Shown one piece after another: positions 1 through 22,866 of a stretch of DNA of 64,000 nt. The stretch spans positions 1-64,000 of the IMG/VR virus record IMGVR_UViG_3300031576_000029; one strand, given 5' to 3'. Below the pieces are notes generated by a model. That model was given only the letters and a program-made list of their open reading frames with translations. It had not been told where the DNA came from and did not search any database. Made by a program: the position numbers and the translations under genes. Position 1 is the stretch's first letter, and every line of letters begins with the position of its first letter. The DNA comes from a virus. Its lineage: Duplodnaviria; Heunggongvirae; Uroviricota; Caudoviricetes.

Positions 1-403
1 AAGTATGGAATCAAGTAATGAATCAAGTATGGAATCAAGTAAGGGATCAAGTATGGAATCAAGTAAGGGATCAAGTAGGGAATCAAGTAGGGGATCAAGT
101 AGGGAATCAAATAGTGGATCAAGTAAGGCATCAAGTAGTGTATCAAGTAGGGGATCAAGTAGGGGATCAAGTAGGGGATCAAGTAGGGGATCAAGTAGGG
201 GATCAAGTAGGGGATCAAGTAGGGAATCAAGTATGGGATCAAGTATGGGATCAAGTATGGGATCAAATAGGGGATCAAGTATGGGATCAAGTAGGGAATC
301 AAGTATGGGATCAAGTATGGGATCAAGTATGGGATCAAATAGGGGATCAAGTATGGGATCAAGTAAGGAATCAAGTATGGGATCAAGTAGTGGAGAATAT
401 TAA
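1..403. repeat. Tandem array of about 33 copies of a 12-bp unit, consensus aagtaNNgNatc; truncated by the window start
   Basis: Head-to-tail 12-mers can be read directly. Only three positions in the unit vary. Every frame stays open across the array. Confidence 0.95.
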
Positions 404-446
404 TAGGGAGTCAAATGTCAAAAAGAAAAATAAATGCAAGTCCTAA
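3..446 (+). CDS. Tetrapeptide-repeat protein with (D/N)QV(W/R/G) repeats; C-terminal part, N-terminus lies upstream of the window
   Basis: The open frame runs from the window edge (18..446 in the ORF track). It uses the same repeat register as the complete paralogue at 791..1207. A 12-bp period equals four codons. The alternative frame 5..403, with SS(K/M/R)G repeats, cannot be excluded. Confidence 0.3.
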   Translation, partial: VWNQVMNQVWNQVRDQVWNQVRDQVGNQVGDQVGNQIVDQVRHQVVYQVGDQVGDQVGDQVGDQVGDQVGDQVGNQVWDQVWDQVWDQIGDQVWDQVGNQVWDQVWDQVWDQIGDQVWDQVRNQVWDQVVENINRESNVKKKNKCKS

Positions 447-621
447 AATAGTTAAACCTTGGAAACATAATATTATGAAAATACGAAGAGAAGAAGCAGA
501 AAAACGTAATTCTGCTTATAACAAATTAACTATTCAACAGAAACTCGCTAAACTGGATATGAATGGGTATGCGGCAACTAAACAAAGATTTAAACTAAAT
601 AGTCAAATAAAAAAACCTTAA
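415..621 (+). CDS. Small basic hypothetical protein
   Basis: 68-aa ORF with a GGGAG ribosome-binding site 6 nt upstream. It starts right after the array ends. Confidence 0.5.
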   Translation: MSKRKINASPKIVKPWKHNIMKIRREEAEKRNSAYNKLTIQQKLAKLDMNGYAATKQRFKLNSQIKKP

Positions 622-790
622 GACGGAGAATATATGAATCATGAAGAAATTAGAAAAGAATGAAGACAAACTCTATATCAAATTCTAGGAATGCTAGGAT
701 ATTTAACACATGAAGATCCTTCTTATGATGAATTATTTAGACATTTAAATACAGAACTTGACTCTTTAGAAGATATAATGCTTAATAAAG

Positions 791-1207
791 ATGAAATATC
801 TTATGAATAAAAAAATCAAGATTCTCAAACCAGAATTATCAATAGAGGATCAGGATCAAGTAAGGTATCAAGTATGGAATCAAGTAAGGGATCAAGTAAG
901 TGATAAAGTAAATGATCAAGTAGGGAATCAAGTAAGGAATCAAGTGTGGAATCAAGTAAGGAATCAAGTAGGGAATCAAGTAAGGAATCAAGTGTGGAAT
1001 CAAGTAGAGGATCAAATATGGAATCAAGTAGGGAATCAAGTAAGGAATCAAGTGTGGAATCAAGTAAGTGATCAAGTAGGGAATCAAGTAAGGAATCAAG
1101 TAGGGAATCAAGTAGAGGATCAAGTAGGGGATCAAGTAAGGAATCAAATAGTGGATCAAATATGGAATCAAGTGAGGGATCAAGTAAAACAACAATTAGG
1201 AGAATAA
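791..1207 (+). CDS. Tetrapeptide-repeat protein: non-repeat N-terminal leader followed by about 28 xQVx repeats
   Basis: The ORF has a 25-aa unique leader. It ends one nt before the AGGAG ribosome-binding site and start of the next gene. The repeat period is 4 codons. Confidence 0.35.
   Translation: MKYLMNKKIKILKPELSIEDQDQVRYQVWNQVRDQVSDKVNDQVGNQVRNQVWNQVRNQVGNQVRNQVWNQVEDQIWNQVGNQVRNQVWNQVSDQVGNQVRNQVGNQVEDQVGDQVRNQIVDQIWNQVRDQVKQQLGE
846..1190. repeat. Second tandem array of about 29 copies of the same 12-bp unit
   Basis: Direct reading shows the same consensus as array 1. Confidence 0.95.
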
Positions 1208-1208
1208 A

Positions 1209-1457
1209 ATGAAAAAAACAGAGAATGGAACAATAGTAGTAACTGAAAAAGTAAATGCTACTCTTACAGTTGATAGCGAACATAAATTGTATAGTATTTA
1301 TGATGTAAAATTAAGTGATTTGGAAGAACTATTAAAACAAGCTAAAAAAATGAAAAAATATTGGACTAGTGAAAATCGTACGGTGCCTAAAAAAATTAAA
1401 GCTTCTTTTGTTCATTTAAATCCTAGATTAACATTTTATGTGCATTTTGATGGGTAA
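1209..1457 (+). CDS. Hypothetical protein
   Basis: 82-aa ORF with an AGGAG ribosome-binding site. Confidence 0.5.
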   Translation: MKKTENGTIVVTEKVNATLTVDSEHKLYSIYDVKLSDLEELLKQAKKMKKYWTSENRTVPKKIKASFVHLNPRLTFYVHFDG

Positions 1458-2308: not shown

Positions 2309-2599
2309 ATGAAAATTAAATCTTTAACATTTGGATTTAGTAATCATATAACCAAAGAAGAATTAGAAAAAGCATATTCTGAAGGTATGATTAAAAAGTC
2401 TAATTTAGTTAACGAAGCACACTATTTAGGTACTTGTAGAAATTCTTATGTAGCTAAATGGATCAGCAAAGATAATTGTTTCTACTATATGAGAACTAAA
2501 TTTGGAGATACTTTTATAGAATCAATAAAACATCCAGAGGATGATGATAGATTTGATTTTTTTATTCCTATGGAAAAGATTGAAGATATATATGAATAG
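2309..2599 (+). CDS. Hypothetical protein; start trimmed from ORF 2159..2599
   Basis: The ATG at 2309 directly follows the stop codon of the previous gene. Confidence 0.4.
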   Translation: MKIKSLTFGFSNHITKEELEKAYSEGMIKKSNLVNEAHYLGTCRNSYVAKWISKDNCFYYMRTKFGDTFIESIKHPEDDDRFDFFIPMEKIEDIYE

Positions 2600-2725
2600 A
2601 TATAATATAATGGGAACTTACGATGGTTAAAAAAAGTATGAAAAGACTAAAAAGATTTAAACAATATGAATATGCTGTAGTTATTTTTACTATTGCTCTC
2701 ATATTACTTGTAATGAAAGTCGTAG

Positions 2726-2995
2726 ATGTTTTCAGAAGCGGAAATTAAAGAAGCTGTGATGTGGTATGTGATTCATAATCAACATCATTTAAAAGAAGAA
2801 TTAAAAGATTTAATACAACAGAGAAATGATCTTATTAAAAAAGAAGATGAAGTATTTCATGATGATATTACAACTCAATTCGAGAAAATGGCAAAAAGTA
2901 TTATTTGTGAAAAAATAGGAAAAGACTTGGCTTTATCTCCCGAATCTGTTATTATAATTTTAGATGATTTAAACATGGACGAACTTATTGCTTGA
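2726..2995 (+). CDS. Hypothetical protein
   Basis: 89-aa ORF. Confidence 0.4.
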   Translation: MFSEAEIKEAVMWYVIHNQHHLKEELKDLIQQRNDLIKKEDEVFHDDITTQFEKMAKSIICEKIGKDLALSPESVIIILDDLNMDELIA

Positions 2996-3020
2996 CAAAG
3001 GATTTGGAATTTGATAAACT
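2992..3020 (+). promoter_or_regulatory. Sigma70-like promoter for the Ro60 gene: TTGACA, 17-nt spacer, TGnTAAACT
   Basis: Consensus -35 box, an extended TG, and a 4/6 match at -10, about 125 nt upstream of the Ro60 ATG. Confidence 0.45.
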
Positions 3021-3078
3021 AAGAGTAGTACAATAGCCGAATGGCTGTACTCTTTCATTGTAACACTGAGGGTCGAAG

Positions 3079-3110
3079 ATAATCGATTATTGGATTATAT
3101 CATCGATTAT
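3079..3110 (+). promoter_or_regulatory. Pair of ATCGAT-centred palindromes (ATAATCGATTAT, ATCATCGATTAT) in the Ro60 5' leader; candidate operator
   Basis: One perfect 12-bp palindrome and a near-copy 20 bp downstream. Confidence 0.35.
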
Positions 3111-3146
3111 CAATTCCTTATCCTCCTTCTTTCTTAGGAGAACAGT

Positions 3147-4736
3147 ATGAATTATTCAAATTTCTTATCCAAGAAGACAACTCCTCAAACACAACCTATT
3201 TTTGGTCGCAATGATCAAAAACTTAATAATGCCGGAGGATATGTATTTGATGTTCCAGATCAAGCATTACTCGAAAGATTTCTTACGATTGGTACAGAAA
3301 ATGGTACTTATTATGTAAGTGAACAAAAGCTCACTGTTGATAATGCTAAACGCATGATTGAGATTATTAAAAAAGATGGAAAGAATGTTGTTCAAACTCT
3401 CCTTAATTTTACAGAAAACAACAGAGCACTTAAACAAGATCCATCTATTTTTGTGTTAGCTTTAGCTTGCACTTATGGAGATGCCGATACAAAGAAATTT
3501 GCTTATAATGCCATTCATAAAGTATGTAGAACATCTACTCATTTATTTACTTTCTGTCAAAATGTTCAAGATTTAAGAGGATGGAGTAGAGGATTAAGAA
3601 CCGGAGTATCTCAGTTTTATTTATCTAAAAGTCCAAAAGATGTTGCTTATCAACTTGTTAAATATCGTCAACGAAATGGATGGACACATAGAGATGTTCT
3701 AAGACTAGCTCATACTAATCCTAGACTATCTACTGGATATTTGTATTTATTTCACTATGCAGTAAATGGTTCTTTAAAAATGAGCATGGATGTTCCTGAT
3801 ATTATTCATGCATTTGAAAATGCTCAAGATACCGATGATGTTAAAGAATTGGTAGATTTAATTAAAAGATACAATTTAACTTGGGAAATGGTTCCAACAG
3901 AAAAATTAAATAATAAAGAAGTTTTAGCTGCTCTTCTTGAAAATATGCCTATGACAGCTCTACTCAGAAATTTAAACAGATTTGCTATTTCAGGTCTGAC
4001 AAATGGACGTAGAGAATATCATACAAATTTTATTGTTGAAAGACTTAATGATTTGAATCTTCTTAAGAAATCTCATGTACATCCAATTACTCTTTTAAAT
4101 ACAATGAAAATCTATAATTCAGGTCATGGAATGAAGGGTAAACAAACTTGGACTCCCAATCAAGAAATTGTTGATGCTCTTAATAGTTCATTTGAACTAT
4201 CTTTTCAAGCTGTCGAACCTACAAATAAGTCTATTCTTATTGCGGCAGATGTCAGTGGTAGCATGTCTCATTCTAATGTTGGTGGAATGGCTTTAAGTCC
4301 TATCGAAATAGCAGCTGCTTTGCTTCTAACTACTTATAAAACTGAACCAAATGCAGAAGCTGTTTTGTTTGATACTGTTGTGTACCCAACAAAATTTGGC
4401 ACAAGAACAAGTTATGATGCAGTTCTCCAAACTGTTAAAAATATTTGTGGAGGAGGAACTGATTGTTCACTTCCATTCAAACATGCATTGAGCACTAGAA
4501 CTAAATATGATGCTATTATGACTTTAACAGATAGTGAAACATGGGCTGGAAGTCAACATCCTATTCAAGCATATGCAACGTACAAACAAACTGTTAATGT
4601 AAATACTAAAGGAATTGTTGTTGGAATGGTAGCTAATGAATGTACATTATTTCCTGCTGAAGATTTAGATGCTCTCAATATTGCTGGTATGGATAGTTCA
4701 ATACCCGAATTAATTCGTAATTTTATTAAGGATTGA
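3147..4736 (+). CDS. rsr: Ro60 (Rsr) orthologue: TROVE domain plus C-terminal vWA domain
   Basis: The N-terminal GGYVFDVPDQALLERFLTIGTENGTYYVSEQKL matches the TROVE signature. The C-terminal half has a vWA MIDAS motif, IAADVSGSMS. Length is 529 aa. Confidence 0.8.
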   Translation: MNYSNFLSKKTTPQTQPIFGRNDQKLNNAGGYVFDVPDQALLERFLTIGTENGTYYVSEQKLTVDNAKRMIEIIKKDGKNVVQTLLNFTENNRALKQDPSIFVLALACTYGDADTKKFAYNAIHKVCRTSTHLFTFCQNVQDLRGWSRGLRTGVSQFYLSKSPKDVAYQLVKYRQRNGWTHRDVLRLAHTNPRLSTGYLYLFHYAVNGSLKMSMDVPDIIHAFENAQDTDDVKELVDLIKRYNLTWEMVPTEKLNNKEVLAALLENMPMTALLRNLNRFAISGLTNGRREYHTNFIVERLNDLNLLKKSHVHPITLLNTMKIYNSGHGMKGKQTWTPNQEIVDALNSSFELSFQAVEPTNKSILIAADVSGSMSHSNVGGMALSPIEIAAALLLTTYKTEPNAEAVLFDTVVYPTKFGTRTSYDAVLQTVKNICGGGTDCSLPFKHALSTRTKYDAIMTLTDSETWAGSQHPIQAYATYKQTVNVNTKGIVVGMVANECTLFPAEDLDALNIAGMDSSIPELIRNFIKD

Positions 4737-4799
4737 ACGAGTCGAATGAGAATCGGTTATTTTCAAGCTATATCCGATTTTCGATAACTTATTCGTTCA
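4734..4799 (+). ncRNA. Candidate Y-RNA-like module 1, directly 3' of rsr
   Basis: Terminal 7-bp stem TGAACGA/TCGTTCA encloses an internal aatcgg/ccgatt hairpin. It shares a GAGTCGAATGA box with module 2. Confidence 0.3.
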
Positions 4800-4845
4800 T
4801 TAATTTGGAATGTAGTGAATCATAGATATTTTTATCAATTTATTT

Positions 4846-4937
4846 TTAGCGAGTCGAATGAATTGATTAGAGTTCGAATCTCATCTTGAAGCGATAGCTT
4901 CTTGTAGGAACCCGATTTCTAAATCTTCATTCGCTAA
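4846..4937 (+). ncRNA. Candidate Y-RNA-like module 2 with a tRNA-like T-arm mimic
   Basis: The terminal stem TTAGCGA..GAATGAA / TTCATTCGCTAA carries a 5-nt bulge. Inside it are GAG-TTCGAAT-CTC (a T-loop consensus) and the GAAGC-gata-GCTTC hairpin. A U-rich tract follows. Confidence 0.35.
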
Positions 4938-4976
4938 TAACAAATTTTATTTTCTATTTGCGAATAGGAGGATTTT

Positions 4977-6245
4977 GTGAAAGTTAAGAAGATAGATGCC
5001 AAAGGGAGAAAATACTATACTTTAGTATATAATCCTAAATCGAAGAAAACTATCTTTATTCAAGAATTTCCTCAAACTCTTCATATTAGAGAATCAAATA
5101 CCGATAACGGTAAACCTAGACATCAAACACGTTTTATTATTTCTTTTAAGAGAAATCAAGTTAATCTATATCAAAAAGGTACAGGTAATAGAATAGTAAA
5201 TGTTACTACTACTCCTGAAGCCTTTGATAAGTATATTAATAATAGTTTGGCTTTTGCAAAAACAGATAAAACTAATAAATTTTTCTTGTTAGGTAAAAGA
5301 TCGGCATTAAACAAATTAATCTTACAAAAAGCTAAACAATGTAAAATACGAACATTAATTAAATTAAATGCCACTAGATTTTATTCGGGAAGTTTAGTTT
5401 ATATTTTAGCCTTTCCTTTGACCTCTGAATTTATAATAAGTAGATTCCCTAAAGAAATAGTTCATTTGGCCGGATCTAGAAAAAATCCTATTTCAAGATT
5501 CTTAAGAAAATTTTCTATTAGAGAAGCAGTAGAAAGTGGATTAAAAACTAAATCAAAAAAGCTTATAAAATTAATAACTGAAAGTAATAATCTATACAGA
5601 ACATTTTTATTTGTCTATACCCTAAGAAAATTGATACCTTTAGATTACATATTTGAAATAATTCTTAATAATACTAGTCAAAGTTTAGGTTTCATCAATG
5701 AACAACAAGTTAGAATAACAAGAAAATTACTAAAAAATTATGGTAAAGAACGCATTAAGATTTTGATGTCTAAGACTTTTAATGATTTTGAATTAATAGA
5801 TTCAGCAAAACAATGGAATGATTTTAAAAATCAAATAACTTTACCAGATAAACCAGATTCTATTAAAACATTACATGATTATATTTCAAAAGAATATAGA
5901 AAAGTAAAAACCCAGAATCATAAATTAAATATGATTAAAACGTTTAAAATTTTAGATGGTTTTCAAATTAAAAATTATAGATTCCATTTACCAAAAAACA
6001 CACATGAGTTAATTGAATGGGGTCAAAAATTGAATAATTGTATAGCAAGCTATTCAGATAGCGCAATGAGACAAGATATTCAATTAGTTGGAGTATTAAA
6101 AGATGATCAACTTACTTATGCTTTAGAATTATCTAAACAGGGTAAGATAATCCAATTTAGAGGAAAAAATAATTCTTCACCTGATCTTTCGGATTATAAA
6201 TTAATTACACATACTATCACTAACTTATTGACCATTTATCCATAA
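4977..6245 (+). CDS. PcfJ-like domain protein
   Basis: The C-terminal block ELIEWGQKLNNCIASY...IIQFRGKNNSSP resembles the PcfJ-like signature. It has a GTG start with an AGGAGG ribosome-binding site. Confidence 0.45.
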   Translation: MKVKKIDAKGRKYYTLVYNPKSKKTIFIQEFPQTLHIRESNTDNGKPRHQTRFIISFKRNQVNLYQKGTGNRIVNVTTTPEAFDKYINNSLAFAKTDKTNKFFLLGKRSALNKLILQKAKQCKIRTLIKLNATRFYSGSLVYILAFPLTSEFIISRFPKEIVHLAGSRKNPISRFLRKFSIREAVESGLKTKSKKLIKLITESNNLYRTFLFVYTLRKLIPLDYIFEIILNNTSQSLGFINEQQVRITRKLLKNYGKERIKILMSKTFNDFELIDSAKQWNDFKNQITLPDKPDSIKTLHDYISKEYRKVKTQNHKLNMIKTFKILDGFQIKNYRFHLPKNTHELIEWGQKLNNCIASYSDSAMRQDIQLVGVLKDDQLTYALELSKQGKIIQFRGKNNSSPDLSDYKLITHTITNLLTIYP

Positions 6246-6262
6246 AAGGGTATAATATTTAC

Positions 6263-6607
6263 ATGACTATTCAAGAAGCAATCGAAACTACCAAACCTTT
6301 TAGACTTCCTAAATGGAGCAATAATTGGATAACTGTAGATTTAAACGCCAACTTATTTAAGTTATCTGGTCCTGATAGTCCTGATCTATGGAAATTATTT
6401 CCAAATGATTTTTTATCTCTTGATTGGGAAGTAAAATTGTGTAACACGCACAATACAATCGCTATTAATCAACTACATCTTCTCTGTGCAACTTGTCTAG
6501 GAGAAGCTGTAACAAACATAGTTCCGCCAGAAATAAAACTTGTTCCTAAATGTTCATGTGATTTAAGATTAATTCTTTCTAAAGGATGTCAATGTGGAGG
6601 AATATAA
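6263..6607 (+). CDS. Cysteine-rich hypothetical protein
   Basis: 114-aa ORF with C..C and CSC...CQC clusters. Confidence 0.4.
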   Translation: MTIQEAIETTKPFRLPKWSNNWITVDLNANLFKLSGPDSPDLWKLFPNDFLSLDWEVKLCNTHNTIAINQLHLLCATCLGEAVTNIVPPEIKLVPKCSCDLRLILSKGCQCGGI

Positions 6608-19456: not shown

Positions 19457-19813
19457 ATGAATAGAATTATACAATTAGCTAAAAAACTCAGTTATAAATC
19501 AGATCATAGAGCACACAAGCTTGGTTGTGTAATTGTTAACAAAAATAAAATTATATCATTGGGATGGAATAGAATTAAAACACATCCCAAATCTCCTCAT
19601 AAATTTAAATCAATTCATGCCGAATTTCATGCTATCTTAGGTGTAGATGAACGAGAATTAAATGGAGCGACTGTTTATATTTATAGAGAACAAAAGAATG
19701 GTAAACTAGGTAAAGCTCGTCCTTGTTCTAGTTGTTGGAAAATGTTAGAAAATGTAGGAATTTCTGAAATAATATATTCAGATTATGATGGAATGAAAAG
19801 AGAAAGGATATGA
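19457..19813 (+). CDS. dCMP deaminase, zinc-dependent
   Basis: HAEFHAI and PCSSCWKML zinc motifs. Start moved to the ATG at 19457, just after the stop of the previous gene. Confidence 0.8.
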   Translation: MNRIIQLAKKLSYKSDHRAHKLGCVIVNKNKIISLGWNRIKTHPKSPHKFKSIHAEFHAILGVDERELNGATVYIYREQKNGKLGKARPCSSCWKMLENVGISEIIYSDYDGMKRERI

Positions 19814-20595
19814 GCATTCCTAAAGATATTACTTCTAAACATTTAACAATTGATGCCTGGGCGATATTAAGTGGTTACAGAGGAAGTATAGCTCACGGAA
19901 TGTATGTTCCAAAAGATAATCCAAATAGTATTGATGATAAAGATGTTATGACAGTATTTCTAGCTCCATTTGATTATTATACTACATTAGAAACTCATGG
20001 GTTATCTCGCGGAACGAAAGAAATTTTGGAAGGTGAATGGGATGTTGTTTGTTACGAATTTAAAAAATTTATTAGTTTATTAATTAAAGGTAATCCAAAT
20101 GTTATTTCTTTATTATGGCTAGAACCTAATTATTATATTAAGGTAACTGATATAGGACAATCTTTATTGATTAATAGAGATGTATTTTCATCAAAGCAAA
20201 TTTATCATTCCTTTTCTGGATATGCTTATTCGCAATTAAAAAAAATGACAAGCTTTTCTTTTGAAGGATATATGGGAGAAAAACGAAAAAAATTAGTAGA
20301 AAAATTTGGATATGACTGTAAAAATGCAGCTCATTTAATTCGTCTTTTACGTATGGCTATAGAATTTTTGCATGAAGGGGTATTTTTTGTTCAAAGACCA
20401 GATGCTACTCAATTGCTAGATATTAAATTAGGAATGTGGTCACTAGATCAAGTTAAAAAAGAAGCTGAAAATTTATTTAAAAGGACAGAAGAAGCTTATG
20501 ATAAATCTAAGCTACCTAATCAAGTTGATTTGAAAAAAATAAATGAATTAATGGTTGATTGTTTTAAAGAACATTTTTATGGAGAATTCATATGA
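19810..20595 (+). CDS. Pol-beta-superfamily nucleotidyltransferase
   Basis: GS...(15 aa)...DDKDV pattern near the N-terminus, 261 aa. Immediately upstream of the RNA ligase. Confidence 0.45.
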   Translation: MSIPKDITSKHLTIDAWAILSGYRGSIAHGMYVPKDNPNSIDDKDVMTVFLAPFDYYTTLETHGLSRGTKEILEGEWDVVCYEFKKFISLLIKGNPNVISLLWLEPNYYIKVTDIGQSLLINRDVFSSKQIYHSFSGYAYSQLKKMTSFSFEGYMGEKRKKLVEKFGYDCKNAAHLIRLLRMAIEFLHEGVFFVQRPDATQLLDIKLGMWSLDQVKKEAENLFKRTEEAYDKSKLPNQVDLKKINELMVDCFKEHFYGEFI

Positions 20596-21683
20596 GCGAC
20601 TTTCGGGTAGAAATTACTGATATCAAAGCAGTAAGACATCATCCCAATGCTGATAGATTAGATATTGTAAATATATTTGGTTGGGAAGTTGTAACATCTA
20701 AAGATACTTATAAAGTTGGTGATAAAGTATGTTATTTTCCTGTTGATTGTATTATAAGTGAAGATTTGGAAAAAATATTGTTTCCTCCTGATTCTAAAAT
20801 TAAATTAACTAATAGACGTATTAAAAGTATAAAATTGCGCGGACAAATAAGTCAAGGAATGATTGCTAATCCTAAACTTATAGGAGTGGATCATTTTAAT
20901 ATCGATAAAAATGTAGCTGAGTATTTAAAATGTATTAAATATGAACCACCAGAAATATCTAAACCAAGAGGAATGCAGGTTAGATCCAAAAAACAAGTCA
21001 ATCCTAATTTTCGTAAATATACTGATATTCAAAATTATAAATATTATAATGAAGTATTTCAACAAGGGGAACTTGTTGTTATTACTGAAAAATGTCACGG
21101 CACCTCGTGGCGTGGAGGTTGGGTGAAAAACGATGCTAATACTTTGTGGAAGAAAATAAGAAAATTATTTGGTCGGCTTCCTGAATGGGAATTTGTTTGG
21201 GGAAGTCATAATGTTCAAATTCAAAATAAATTATTTCATAAGGGCTTTTATGATGTAGATGTATATTCGAAAATGGTTAAACAATATGATTTAAAAAATC
21301 TTATTCCAAAAGGTTATGTTCTTTATGGAGAAATAGTTGGTTATAATATTCAAAAGAATTTCCATTATGATTGTGTTCCAGGGGAACATAAACTCTTTTT
21401 ATTTGATGTAAAATTTAATGACAAATGGTTAGATTATGAAGATTTTAAAATTACAGTAGATGCTTTAAAATTATCTAGAGTTCCTGAATTATTTACTGGT
21501 CCATATGATCCGGCTATTGTTGATAAACTTAGAAGCGGAACTAGTATATTAGATGAAAATACCATTAAAGAAGGTATTGTAATTAAAACAATTAAAGAAA
21601 CAGAATGTTCACTTGGAAGAAAAATATTAAAATTTATAAATGATGAATATTATTTATTAAAAGACGGAACGGATTATCATTAG
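20592..21683 (+). CDS. Rnl2-family RNA ligase fused to an N-terminal Myf/EMAP-type tRNA-binding domain
   Basis: N-terminal HPNADRLDIVNI matches the tRNA-binding-domain signature. Ligase motif I EKCHGTS (KxHG as in Rnl2), motif IV LFLFDV, motif V KEGIVIK. Confidence 0.6.
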   Translation: MSDFRVEITDIKAVRHHPNADRLDIVNIFGWEVVTSKDTYKVGDKVCYFPVDCIISEDLEKILFPPDSKIKLTNRRIKSIKLRGQISQGMIANPKLIGVDHFNIDKNVAEYLKCIKYEPPEISKPRGMQVRSKKQVNPNFRKYTDIQNYKYYNEVFQQGELVVITEKCHGTSWRGGWVKNDANTLWKKIRKLFGRLPEWEFVWGSHNVQIQNKLFHKGFYDVDVYSKMVKQYDLKNLIPKGYVLYGEIVGYNIQKNFHYDCVPGEHKLFLFDVKFNDKWLDYEDFKITVDALKLSRVPELFTGPYDPAIVDKLRSGTSILDENTIKEGIVIKTIKETECSLGRKILKFINDEYYLLKDGTDYH

Positions 21684-21874: not shown

Positions 21875-22866
21875 TGGGATTTTTCAAAGTTAAAAGTAAA
21901 AAGAAATTAATTGATCTTAAAGAAGGCGAACAAATTCCTGAAAGTGATTTTGCCTCAATTTGTCCAGATGGAACGTTTATTCAATTTGAATATACCGAAG
22001 AAGAATATAAATCTCAACCTTACGAAGTTAAACCTGGAATTTGGACTATACAAAAGACAAATCGTGGCTTAAAACTAGAACCAACATCTTTTGTCACTGA
22101 AAATATTTTAGAAAGTTTTATAAATACTAAAGAACTCATGAATAAGATTGGTTGTTTCTTTAGAAATTTTGATAAGTATAAGAAATACGGAATTGAAATA
22201 CCTAAAAGAGCAGCTTTATTATATGGTCCCGCAGGTGCAGGAAAATCTACTTCACTTATTAAAGTCTGTCAACACTATGCAAAAGATGGAACAACTACTA
22301 TTGTTATATGGCCTACAGATAAATTAGATCCTTATGAAGTCAAAGATTTTTTTAAAACATTCACTTATACTGATGTTCATAAAGTAATTATGATAGCTGA
22401 AGATATAGGTGGAGCTGAAGCAGAACATGTTAAAATAAAAAGTGTGAGCAGTTTATTATCTTTGTTAGATAATAAAGAAAAAATTTTTACTAAGCCTACA
22501 TTTATTATAGCTACAACAAATTTTCCGGAAAATTTCTTAGGTAATATAACTAATCGGCCCGGAAGATTTGATGATAAATTAGAAATGACATATCCTAATT
22601 CTGAAGCAAGATATGAACTTCTCAAATTTTTTGGACAAGGTGAGATTCCAGAAAATGTTTTACTTCAAATTAAACAAAAGAAATATTCTGAATTATCTGC
22701 AGCTCATATACACGAAGTGATTATTCGCTCTGCAATTCATGAAATTTCTATAGAAGATGCATTAGATGGCGTACAAAAAGAGATTGAAATATATAAAAAG
22801 AGTTTCGATAAGAAAAAATTAAGTAAGATTGGAATTACCAATTCTGTATATGAGGACGATGATTAA
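21874..22866 (+). CDS. Classic AAA-family ATPase
   Basis: Walker A LYGPAGAGKST, Walker B MIAEDIGG, and ATTNFPE...TNRPGRFDDKL in the sensor/second region of homology. Confidence 0.65.
   Translation: MGFFKVKSKKKLIDLKEGEQIPESDFASICPDGTFIQFEYTEEEYKSQPYEVKPGIWTIQKTNRGLKLEPTSFVTENILESFINTKELMNKIGCFFRNFDKYKKYGIEIPKRAALLYGPAGAGKSTSLIKVCQHYAKDGTTTIVIWPTDKLDPYEVKDFFKTFTYTDVHKVIMIAEDIGGAEAEHVKIKSVSSLLSLLDNKEKIFTKPTFIIATTNFPENFLGNITNRPGRFDDKLEMTYPNSEARYELLKFFGQGEIPENVLLQIKQKKYSELSAAHIHEVIIRSAIHEISIEDALDGVQKEIEIYKKSFDKKKLSKIGITNSVYEDDD

What the first reader, a model, noticed from the sequence alone, without database searches (positions are those of the whole stretch)
3147..4976. Phage-borne Ro60 (Rsr) orthologue with two tandem Y-RNA-like modules immediately downstream
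The 529-aa protein has a clear TROVE N-terminal block and a vWA MIDAS motif (DVSGSMS), which is the Ro60 architecture. In bacteria, rsr is almost always adjacent to its Y-RNA partners, some of which mimic tRNA.

The 240-nt ORF-free stretch after the stop codon folds into two modules. Each is closed by a long terminal helix, and the second helix carries a 5-nt bulge, as Ro-binding stems do. The second module contains a near-perfect T-arm mimic, GAG-TTCGAAT-CTC.

Both modules share the box GAGTCGAATGA. The unit is followed by a U-rich tract and then by the RBS of a PcfJ-like gene.

A virus carrying its own Ro-RNP, with a sigma70-like promoter, a bulged leader hairpin and paired ATCGAT palindromes upstream, suggests it either reprogrammes host RNA decay and quality control or protects its own RNAs.
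Basis: partly seen in the sequence, partly recalled or inferred. Interest (0 to 1): 0.75.

Follow-up and report, generated by a model that had tools for sequence, protein, structure and literature searches.

The report
Phage Ro60 gene with three Y RNAs
A tailed phage carries a clear Ro60 (Rsr) gene flanked by three small Y-RNA genes, one upstream and two downstream; this is a new example of an RNA-protein system already described in bacteria and other phages, not a new kind of system.

Summary
Window 3147-4736 encodes a full-length Ro60: TROVE 2.7e-44, Ro60-type vWA 1.5e-45, and 1.3e-105 to human Ro60 over its whole length. The box GAGTCGAATGA shared by both downstream modules contains GUCGAAUG. 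That is the published Ro60-recognition motif of bacterial Y RNAs, GNCGAAN0-1G.

I built covariance models only from Y-RNA modules next to Ro60 genes in other contigs, then searched the window with them.
- 4735-4798 scores 38 bits (E 7e-7, whole window).
- 4846-4937 scores 17.5 bits (E 0.003 over 3 kb with model R1). A T-arm subclass model, R3, gives 14.8 bits (E 0.002, whole window).

The tRNA mimicry of module 2 is only vestigial. It has a canonical UUCGAAU loop on a 3-bp stem and an acceptor-like hairpin, but no D-loop. It scores 8 bits on a full YrlA model, against 66 bits for a mycobacteriophage YrlA.

Phage Ro60 with Y RNAs is already known from mycobacteriophages and Thermus phage phiLo. 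I rate this a new member of a known kind, of modest interest.

The parts
2992..3020 (+). Sigma-70-like promoter candidate: TTGACA, 17-nt spacer with TG, TAAACT. It overlaps the stop codon of the upstream ORF.
   Evidence: 10 of 12 matches plus TG, the best site in 2600-5300. The number of such sites in the region is not above shuffles, so this is suggestive only.
3022..3055 (+). Bulged hairpin between the promoter candidate and the first Y module. Function unknown; it could be a 5' stabiliser, an attenuator, or the terminator of the upstream gene.
   Evidence: -11.6 kcal/mol, z = -2.8. One search lists it as terminator-like. R1 does not hit it. No counterpart was seen upstream of rsr in L154.
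3066..3127 (+). Y0, a short (YrlB-like) Y-RNA module in the rsr 5' leader. Closing stem GAGGGU/AUCCUC (3068-3073 with 3120-3125). Motif GUCGAAG at 3072-3078. UUAU after the inner stem and UUAUCC on the 3' strand. It ends 8 nt before the SD AGGAG (3136-3140).
   Evidence: R1 was built without window sequences. It scores 21.5 bits here, E 0.0074 over the whole window and 0.00035 over 3 kb. Fold z = -2.2. Modules at the same position abut the Ro60 SD in L001, L002, L003, L005, L008, L081 and L154.
3147..4736 (+). rsr/Ro60 gene, 529 aa. TROVE domain is encoded by DNA 3225-4103 and the Ro60-type vWA by 4233-4727. MIDAS motif DVSGSMS is at 4248-4268.
   Evidence: Pfam; human Ro60 9nen 1.3e-105, Xenopus 1yvp 8.1e-100, D. 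radiodurans Rsr 2nvo 3.1e-87, all full length; 4960 homologues with E <= 1e-20; invariant residues.
4734..4799 (+). Y1, a short Y-RNA module. Closing stem UGAACGAGU/AUUCGUUCA begins with the rsr stop codon TGA (4734-4736). Motif GUCGAAUG at 4741-4748. Inner stem 4747-4756 with 4774-4783. GGUUAU follows. It has no tRNA-like domain.
   Evidence: R1 scores 38.1 bits, E 6.7e-7 over the whole window. Fold z = -3.7. It aligns with L154 downstream module 1, minus that module's whole tRNA-like domain.
4846..4937 (+). Y2, a Y-RNA module with a vestigial tRNA-like domain. Closing stem 4846-4852 with 4931-4937. Motif GUCGAAUG at 4853-4860. AUGAA/UUCAU pair 4858-4862 with 4926-4930. T-arm remnant GAG-UUCGAAU-CUC at 4870-4882. 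Acceptor-like hairpin at 4885-4904. A third hairpin at 4906-4920 takes the place of the D arm.
   Evidence: R1 with filters off: 17.5 bits, E 0.0033 over 3 kb. R3 (subclass with a short T arm right after UUAUCA): 14.8 bits, E 0.0018 over the whole window, matched end to end. R2 (full YrlA 5' half): only 8.1 bits; T arm, AS hairpin and GUAG align but the D loop is missing. It aligns with L154 downstream module 2, minus the V arm. ARAGORN finds no tRNA.
4943..4966 (+). T-rich tract after Y2, before the SD and GTG start (4977) of the PcfJ-like gene. It could be a 3' end or weak termination site for the Y array.
   Evidence: Sequence read directly. The terminator scan does not call it.

Best explanation
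The locus is a phage-encoded Ro60 ribonucleoprotein cassette. It consists of one rsr/Ro60 gene and three Y RNA genes on the same strand: Y0 in the leader, and Y1 and Y2 just after the stop codon.

What is shown:
- The protein is a full-length Ro60 ring protein with a MIDAS-bearing vWA domain.
- Each RNA has the family anatomy. The 5' and 3' ends pair in a closing stem. That stem is interrupted by the Ro60-recognition motif G-N-CGAA-N-G. A second stem follows, then UUAU. Y2 also has an effector module that is a decayed, circularly permuted tRNA-like domain: a T-loop and an acceptor-like hairpin.

What is inferred:
- The four elements are made as one transcript, probably from the promoter-like site at 2992-3020. 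Y0 ends 8 nt before the SD, and Y1's stem contains the rsr stop codon, so there is no room for separate promoters.
- The Y RNAs are then trimmed out by host RNases.
- Ro60 binds each Y RNA at the GUCGAA bulge.
- As in D. radiodurans and Salmonella RYPER and in Thermus phage phiLo, the Y RNA gates the Ro60 cavity and tethers it to a host 3'-5' exoribonuclease, most likely PNPase. This redirects or dampens host RNA decay and quality control during infection.
- The phage also encodes an RNA ligase plus RlaP pair, so a role alongside RNA repair is plausible.
For: Protein.

Phage identity.

Motif: GUCGAAG, GUCGAAUG and GUCGAAUG in Y0, Y1 and Y2 match GNCGAAN0-1G as defined in PMC4201824.

Family membership, using models trained on other loci only:
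- R1 gives 38.1 bits (Y1), 21.5 bits (Y0) and 17.5 bits (Y2).
- R3 gives 14.8 bits for Y2.
- The only other R1 hit in 64 kb on both strands has E 0.26.

The family is real and tied to Ro60:
- R1 gives 85 hits in 97 viral and metagenomic Ro60 loci and 71 hits in 80 bacterial Ro60 loci. All 156 are on the Ro60 strand.
- On the MAFFT alignment, 76% of cells are paired against 56% in shuffles, with 0 of 500 shuffles reaching the observed value.
- All 15 pairs show compensatory changes in 80 distinct sequences.

Positive control: R1 and R2 recover the Y-RNA cluster upstream of Ro60 in mycobacteriophage ET08, with YrlA at 65.7 bits.

Orthologous layout in a related 90-kb phage contig, L154: one module upstream, two downstream.

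Mechanism by analogy: phiLo Ro60 binds its Yrl RNAs through the CGAA motif and forms a ternary complex with host PNPase that lowers PNPase activity (PMC12135203). RYPER is described.

RNA ligase and RlaP lie at 19810-21683.
Against: - There are no expression data, so stable small RNAs are not shown.
- Y0 and Y2 score modestly (E about 0.002-0.007).
- Y0's closing stem is only 4-6 bp.
- Y2's T hairpin is not thermodynamically favoured, and its D arm is missing. Any function that depends on tRNA mimicry is therefore doubtful here.
- The window's Ro60 is only distantly related to phiLo Ro60 (E 2e-4), so the PNPase-attenuation result may not transfer.
- The host is unknown. Cellular homologues reach at most 41% identity.
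- Another sample's contig is identical, so there is no population variation to test covariation within this phage.
Confidence: 0.8

Rival explanations
1. The modules are mainly cis-acting parts of the rsr mRNA, not stable trans-acting Y RNAs. They would be Ro60-binding sites in the 5' leader (Y0) and 3' UTR (Y1, Y2) through which Ro60 feeds back on its own translation or mRNA stability.
For: - Y0 ends 8 nt before the SD. Relatives keep a module 5-12 nt from the Ro60 SD.
- A pyrimidine tract (3122-3130) that overlaps or abuts Y0's 3' strand can pair with the SD.
- Y1's stem includes the rsr stop codon.
- No separate promoters stand out.
Against: - In every studied system the same kind of module accumulates as a stable RNA bound to Ro60 (PMC4201824, PMC12135203).
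- Arrays of up to five or more modules interleaved with tRNA genes in relatives look like processed RNA-gene clusters.
- The two roles are not mutually exclusive.
Confidence: 0.12
2. Module 2 is a decayed tRNA gene or tRNA pseudogene that happens to lie near rsr, not a Y RNA.
For: It has a canonical T-loop, UUCGAAU, with a G-C closing pair. Relatives carry real tRNA genes in the same arrays.
Against: - ARAGORN and the Rfam tRNA model find nothing.
- The element order is T arm, then acceptor-like hairpin, then the D position. That is the circularly permuted YrlA order, not the tRNA order.
- It is enclosed by a closing stem that carries GUCGAAUG.
- It aligns with a full YrlA-like module of L154.
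Confidence: 0.03
3. The hairpins are chance structures or ordinary terminators in AT-rich intergenic DNA.
For: The whole 251-nt intergenic fold is not exceptional (z = -1.6). A T-rich tract follows Y2.
Against: - Independent covariance models single out exactly these three sites in 128 kb.
- The published protein-binding motif is present in all three.
- Orthologous modules occupy the same positions in relatives.
Confidence: 0.02

Closest known systems
Salmonella Typhimurium rsr-yrlB-yrlA locus, and bacterial YrlA/YrlB Y RNAs in general (Chen et al. 2014, PMC4201824)
   Same: - Ro60 orthologue with Y RNAs on the same strand just downstream.
- GNCGAAN0-1G motif in a closing stem formed by the 5' and 3' ends, with UUAU after the second stem.
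- A short module (YrlB-like: Y0, Y1) plus a module with a T arm followed by an acceptor-like hairpin (YrlA-like: Y2).
   Different: - The locus is on a phage and is not next to rtcBA; an Rnl-type RNA ligase and RlaP lie 15 kb away.
- An extra module sits in the leader.
- Y2 lacks the D arm and V arm and has a 3-bp T stem.
- The modules are shorter (62-92 nt).
Mycobacteriophage (Bxz1-like, e.g. ET08) Ro60 with YrlA-like RNAs
   Same: Phage-borne Ro60 with several Y modules on the same strand. R1 and R2 detect them.
   Different: - Protein identity is 39%.
- All ET08 modules lie upstream of Ro60.
- ET08 has a full tRNA-like YrlA (65.7 bits on R2, against 8.1 bits for Y2).
- The host is an actinobacterium with a GC-rich genome, whereas this phage is about 30-35% GC and its host is unknown.
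Thermus phage phiLo Ro60 with Yrl1 and Yrl2 (PMC12135203; PDB 9KOP, 9L5Y)
   Same: Phage Ro60 with Y-like RNAs that carry a CGAA motif in a stem-bulge-stem, encoded upstream of the gene. It is the only phage system with binding, structural and PNPase data, so it is the best functional analogue.
   Different: The proteins are barely alignable by sequence (E 2e-4 over about 220 residues). phiLo has no downstream modules and no T-loop.
Deinococcus radiodurans Rsr/Yrn1 and the RYPER complex with PNPase
   Same: Full-length homology (3.1e-87 to 2NVO). A Y RNA is encoded upstream on the same strand. It is the source of the tether-and-gate model.
   Different: It is a cellular, stress-induced system. 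The Yrn1 effector module is larger.
Uncultured ~90-kb phage contig JX_farmland_Scaff20105385 (L154), and contigs L001-L005, L020 and L039
   Same: These carry the closest Ro60 proteins (50-57% identity). They share the one-upstream plus downstream-array layout, with modules that look orthologous. S8 peptidase and class II RNR genes lie nearby.
   Different: The relatives keep full YrlA-like tRNA mimics and real tRNA genes in the array. The window phage has lost or eroded them and carries no tRNA gene in 64 kb.

Membership tests
Ro60 / Rsr protein family | N-terminal TROVE (HEAT-repeat ring) domain | tested here: met
   Pfam PF05731 at 2.7e-44, residues 27-319. Full-length alignment to human, Xenopus and Deinococcus Ro60 structures.
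Ro60 / Rsr protein family | C-terminal Ro60-type vWA domain with a MIDAS motif (DxSxS...T...D) | tested here: met
   PF25045 at 1.5e-45, residues 363-527. D368-V-S370-G-S372, T438 and D462 are invariant in 30 relatives.
Ro60 / Rsr protein family | Conserved KYxQRxGWxHxDxLRLxH segment. From memory of Wolin-lab mutagenesis, and not checked in a paper here, human K170/R174 contact Y RNA and H187 lines the central cavity. | tested here: met
   Query K172, R176 and H189 align with human residues 170, 174 and 187 (counted from the alignment). All three are invariant in A1. The functional assignment of these residues rests on recall only.
Ro60 / Rsr protein family | Ring-shaped 3D structure | not tested
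   I judged structure prediction unnecessary given 1e-105 full-length homology to solved Ro60 structures.
Bacterial/phage Y RNA (Ro60-binding module) | Encoded within a few kb of Ro60 on the same strand | tested here: met
   Y0 ends 20 nt before the start codon. Y1 overlaps the stop codon. Y2 lies 110 nt downstream. All three are on the + strand.
Bacterial/phage Y RNA (Ro60-binding module) | GNCGAAN0-1G motif near the 5' end (PMC4201824) | tested here: met
   GUCGAAG at 3072, GUCGAAUG at 4741 and GUCGAAUG at 4853.
Bacterial/phage Y RNA (Ro60-binding module) | Long stem formed by pairing of the 5' and 3' ends, interrupted at the motif, followed by a second stem | tested here: met
   Folds. Full-length matches to R1, whose two helices covary in relatives. 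Y0's outer stem is short (4-6 bp).
Bacterial/phage Y RNA (Ro60-binding module) | Accumulates as a stable small RNA bound by Ro60 | not testable with these tools
   Needs RNA-seq or Northern blots, plus co-IP or EMSA.
YrlA subfamily (tRNA-mimicking Y RNA) | T stem-loop with tRNA-like loop UUCGAAU on a 5-bp stem | tested here: inconclusive
   The loop is identical to the consensus and the closing G-C pair is kept, but only 3 bp can form (4870-4882). The pair probability is about 0 in the thermodynamic ensemble. It aligns to the T arm in R2 and R3.
YrlA subfamily (tRNA-mimicking Y RNA) | Acceptor-like closed hairpin directly 3' of the T arm | tested here: met
   CUUGAAGC-GAUA-GCUUCUUG at 4885-4904, with pair probability 0.99 for the 5 core pairs. 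It aligns to the AS arm of R2.
YrlA subfamily (tRNA-mimicking Y RNA) | D stem-loop with the conserved GG that docks on the T-loop | tested here: not met
   Only the GUAG at the start of the D stem aligns. The loop is CCCGA with no GG. R2 scores 8.1 bits, against 65.7 bits for ET08 YrlA. Y0 and Y1 have no tRNA-like domain at all.
YrlA subfamily (tRNA-mimicking Y RNA) | tRNA modifications (Psi55, D) and L-shaped fold | not testable with these tools
   Needs a biochemical assay or structure probing.
tRNA gene | Cloverleaf in canonical order with an anticodon arm | tested here: not met
   ARAGORN finds 0 genes in the window. The Rfam tRNA model gives no hit even at E <= 10 in 2900-5100.

The most novel reading that the evidence does not exclude
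In this phage lineage the Y RNAs may have been freed from tRNA mimicry. The orthologues of two full YrlA-like tRNA mimics have lost the domain (Y1) or eroded it (Y2). The module kept tightest against the Ro60 ribosome-binding site (Y0) may act as an autoregulatory leader through which Ro60 senses its own Y-RNA occupancy. On this reading the system works chiefly as a Ro60 gate and titration device. It would possibly be coupled to the phage's own RNA ligase/RlaP repair pair to counter host RNA-targeting defence, rather than acting as a tRNA-like tether.
Probability: 0.12. Interest if true: 0.5.

Novelty: new member of a known kind. Interest (0 to 1): 0.3.

Why it matters
- It extends Ro60/Y-RNA cassettes to an uncultured clade of AT-rich, 80-90-kb tailed phages. 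Their Ro60 proteins (50-57% identical to one another) are closer to animal Ro60 than to Deinococcus Rsr and form a group apart from cellular homologues (at most 41% identity).
- It shows that one lineage can hold everything from full tRNA mimics to bare Ro60-binding hairpins. That helps separate what Ro60 binding needs (closing stem plus GNCGAA bulge) from what the effector module adds.
- Rfam has no model that finds these RNAs, and they sit under "hypothetical protein" calls in deposited phage genomes. The simple models built here could be used to annotate them.
- It does not open a new mechanism.

Tried and rejected
- Rfam, at gathering thresholds on the window and at E <= 10 on 2900-5100: nothing in the intergenic regions. 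This is uninformative, because ten related loci with obvious YrlA-like modules also gave only tRNA hits.
- DNA-level search of the locus against 50,697 phage records: no match.
- Single-protein scan of IMG/VR: no relatives. The alignment-based scan was needed.
- The two closest Ro60 proteins (P0002 at 57%, P0003 at 55%) have almost no intergenic space after the gene. They could not be used for downstream covariation. L152 keeps its modules about 1.2-1.8 kb further downstream.
- The second sample's contig (L150) is identical over 5.9 kb, so there is no within-population covariation.
- A full-length YrlA alignment by MAFFT was unusable at the 3' end. I therefore modelled the 5' half with the T, AS and D arms (R2) and the short-T subclass (R3) separately.
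- A cloverleaf-like fold of Y2 with a stand-alone T hairpin was rejected on thermodynamic grounds.
- The weak R1 hit at 22523-22564 (-), E 0.26, lies inside an AAA ATPase ORF and was treated as chance.
- Literature look-ups for the K170A/R174A mutants and two Wolin reviews were not available.
- The genome scan gave no host clue.
Full report
**The protein.** Window 3147-4736 (+) encodes a 529-aa protein. Pfam finds a TROVE domain (residues 27-319, 2.7e-44) and the Ro60-specific vWA domain (residues 363-527, 1.5e-45). The protein aligns over its full length to solved Ro60 structures: human 9NEN at 1.3e-105, Xenopus 1YVP at 8.1e-100 and Deinococcus Rsr 2NVO at 3.1e-87. It aligns only weakly to the Thermus phage phiLo protein 9KOP (2e-4). 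The MIDAS residues D368, S370, S372, T438 and D462 are invariant among 30 relatives, as is the segment KYRQRNGWTHRDVLRLAH.

**The genome.** The window encodes a large terminase, major head protein, tail fibre proteins, DNA polymerase and primase-helicase, as well as a class II RNR and an S8 peptidase. It belongs to a 78.7-kb contig. No record in the GenBank phage collection matches the rsr locus (2700-6300) at the DNA level. The closest Ro60 proteins (50-57% identity) come from metagenomic contigs, several of about 90 kb. Cellular genomes reach only 41%. Phage Ro60 itself is common knowledge: 359 phage records carry one, mostly actinobacteriophages.

**The RNAs, seen directly.** Contigs with related Ro60 genes carry arrays of modules next to the gene. 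The modules have the form closing stem / G-GUCGNNG / second stem / GGUUAU ... second stem / UUUAUCC / closing stem. Many contain a T arm, a closed acceptor-like hairpin and a D arm. This is the published anatomy of bacterial YrlA and YrlB Y RNAs. Their hallmark is GNCGAAN0-1G near the 5' end, followed by YUAY, then the V, T, AS and D elements (PMC4201824; bioRxiv 10.1101/312249).

It contains GUCGAAUG, an exact instance of that motif. A third instance in the same context, GGGUCGAAG ... UUAUCCUC, lies at 3066-3127 between the promoter-like site and the rsr Shine-Dalgarno.

**Statistical test with independent models.** R1 was built from 23 short modules of other contigs. On the MAFFT alignment 76% of cells pair, against 56% in shuffles, and 0 of 500 shuffles reach the observed value. 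R1 was then run on the window.
- Over the whole window and both strands it finds 4735-4798 (38.1 bits, E 6.7e-7) and 3066-3127 (21.5 bits, E 0.0074). The only other hit has E 0.26.
- With filters off on 2500-5500 it also finds 4847-4936 (17.5 bits, E 0.0033), skipping the 49-nt interior.
- Across 97 viral and metagenomic Ro60 loci it gives 85 hits, and across 80 bacterial Ro60 loci 71 hits. All 156 are on the Ro60 strand, mostly just 5' or 3' of the gene.
- All 15 modelled pairs show compensatory changes in 80 distinct sequences.
- As a positive control, R1 and R2 recover a cluster of two short modules and one YrlA (65.7 bits, E 1e-18) upstream of Ro60 in mycobacteriophage ET08. Chen et al. 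reported YrlA-related RNAs in mycobacteriophages that encode Ro60 (PMC4201824).

**How tRNA-like is module 2?** R2 covers the motif, second stem, and T, AS and D arms, with covariation shown. It gives Y2 only 8.1 bits (E 0.038 over 3 kb). The T arm (GAGUUCGAAUCUC), the acceptor-like hairpin and the GUAG that starts the D stem align, but the D loop is absent.

About a dozen modules in other contigs form a subclass in which a short (3-5 bp) T arm follows UUAUCA directly. In several of them plain hairpins follow the T arm. A model of this subclass, R3, matches Y2 end to end at 14.8 bits, E 0.0018 over the whole window.

Thermodynamically the 3-bp T hairpin is not expected to form alone. The cloverleaf-like fold is -18.1 kcal/mol, against -25.9 for a rod-like MFE, and the T-stem pair probability is about 0. 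ARAGORN and the Rfam tRNA model see nothing. Y2 is therefore a Y RNA with a vestigial tRNA-like domain, not a near-perfect mimic.

**Comparison with the nearest syntenic phage, L154.** L154 is an 89.8-kb farmland contig. Its Ro60 is 55% identical, its S8 peptidase 36% and its RNR 29%. It has one short module abutting the Ro60 SD, two full YrlA-like modules after the stop codon, and a tRNA.
- Y1 aligns with the first downstream module, minus its entire tRNA-like domain.
- Y2 aligns with the second, minus the V arm and with a degenerate D region.
- Y0 aligns with the upstream modules of seven relatives.

The window phage thus appears to have eroded its tRNA-like domains, and it has no tRNA gene in 64 kb.

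**Expression logic (inferred).**
- The best promoter-like site in the region, TTGACA-17(TG)-TAAACT at 2992-3020, sits just upstream.
- A bulged hairpin of unknown role lies at 3022-3055.
- Y0 ends 8 nt before AGGAG, and relatives keep a module 5-12 nt from the Ro60 SD.
- Y1's closing stem starts with the rsr stop codon TGA.
- The Y1-Y2 spacer is 46 nt of AT-rich sequence with no convincing promoter.

The simplest reading is a single transcript carrying Y0, rsr, Y1 and Y2 that is processed into mRNA and small RNAs, as for the Salmonella rsr-yrlBA-rtcBA operon.

**Function (inferred by analogy).** In D. radiodurans and Salmonella, the Y RNA tethers Rsr to PNPase and gates its cavity. In Thermus phage phiLo, the phage Ro60 binds its Yrl RNAs through the CGAA bulge and forms a ternary complex with host PNPase that lowers its activity by about 70-76% (PMC12135203). 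I consider a host-exoribonuclease-directed RNP the most likely function here. The phage also encodes an RNA ligase and RlaP (19810-21683). This echoes the link between rsr and RNA-repair genes in bacteria.

**Verdict.** However, the system is a new member of a known kind. The additions from this stage are:
- the third module, in the leader;
- the identification of the shared box as the published Ro60-binding motif;
- the demonstration that the tRNA mimicry is vestigial;
- the orthology with a clade of uncultured phages.

Interest is modest.

Noticed in passing
window 19810-20595 (+) and 20592-21683 (+): Two overlapping genes form a phage RNA-repair pair about 15 kb from the Ro60 cassette: RlaP (PF10127, RNA-repair-pathway Pol-beta nucleotidyltransferase, 3e-18) and an RNA ligase (PF09414 at 1.9e-17, plus the PHA02142 OB fold). 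This recalls the bacterial rsr-Y RNA-rtcB linkage.
   Followed up: partly
L002 5276-5535, L003 4411-4629, L004 4555-4819, L005 4828-5046: Four related phage contigs carry a 220-265-nt RNA enclosed by a typical Y-RNA closing stem with the GUCGAAG motif. It has a large structured insert with a conserved core, approximately GUACAAUGACCNACUAAAAUGGUCAGGAUGCGGG. In the one copy tested at E <= 1 (L003), no Rfam family matches convincingly: the best is isrO at 14.7 bits (E 0.58, gathering 42), on the opposite strand (alignment). It may be an undescribed Ro60-associated RNA class.
   Followed up: partly
L236 (Mycobacterium phage ET08, NC_013650) 2578-2923: The Y-RNA cluster upstream of Ro60 gp220 consists of R1 hits at 2578-2650 and 2854-2923 and an R2 YrlA hit at 2676-2788. 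It overlaps the annotated hypothetical CDS gp219 (2776-2949), and the record annotates no RNA feature there. gp219 may be a spurious ORF call.
   Followed up: partly
window 3122-3140: The pyrimidine tract CCUCCUUCU overlaps or abuts the 3' strand of Y0's closing stem. It can pair with the rsr SD AGGAG (3136-3140) in at least two registers (MFE; sequence read directly). This could couple Y0 folding or Ro60 binding to translation. The anti-SD is not obviously conserved in relatives.
   Followed up: partly
window 3022-3055: A bulged hairpin lies right after the promoter-like site. Its apical part contains GCCGAAUG, which also fits GNCGAAN0-1G but not in a Y-RNA context (no R1 hit). The scan calls it terminator-like. 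No counterpart was seen upstream of rsr in L154.
   Followed up: partly
window 1-1300: Overlapping low-complexity ORFs in several frames and on both strands are built from short tandem repeats. The peptides read like SS(R/K/M)GSS and NQV(W/R/G)DQV. This is probably a tandem DNA repeat region near the contig end. I did not examine it.
   Followed up: no
L020 4736-4807, L003 4655-4726, L005 5074-5145, L002 4955-5026, L007 1907-1979, L039 4728-4797: Relatives interleave bona fide tRNA genes (Rfam tRNA at 43-71 bits) with their Y-RNA arrays downstream of Ro60. Some tRNA-like sequences are nested inside Y-RNA closing stems. The window phage has no tRNA gene in 64 kb.
   Followed up: partly
window 22523-22564 (-): A weak R1 match (15.2 bits, E 0.26), UUCCGGGCCGAUUA...UUUUCCGGAA, lies on the strand opposite an AAA ATPase ORF. 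It is probably chance.
   Followed up: no
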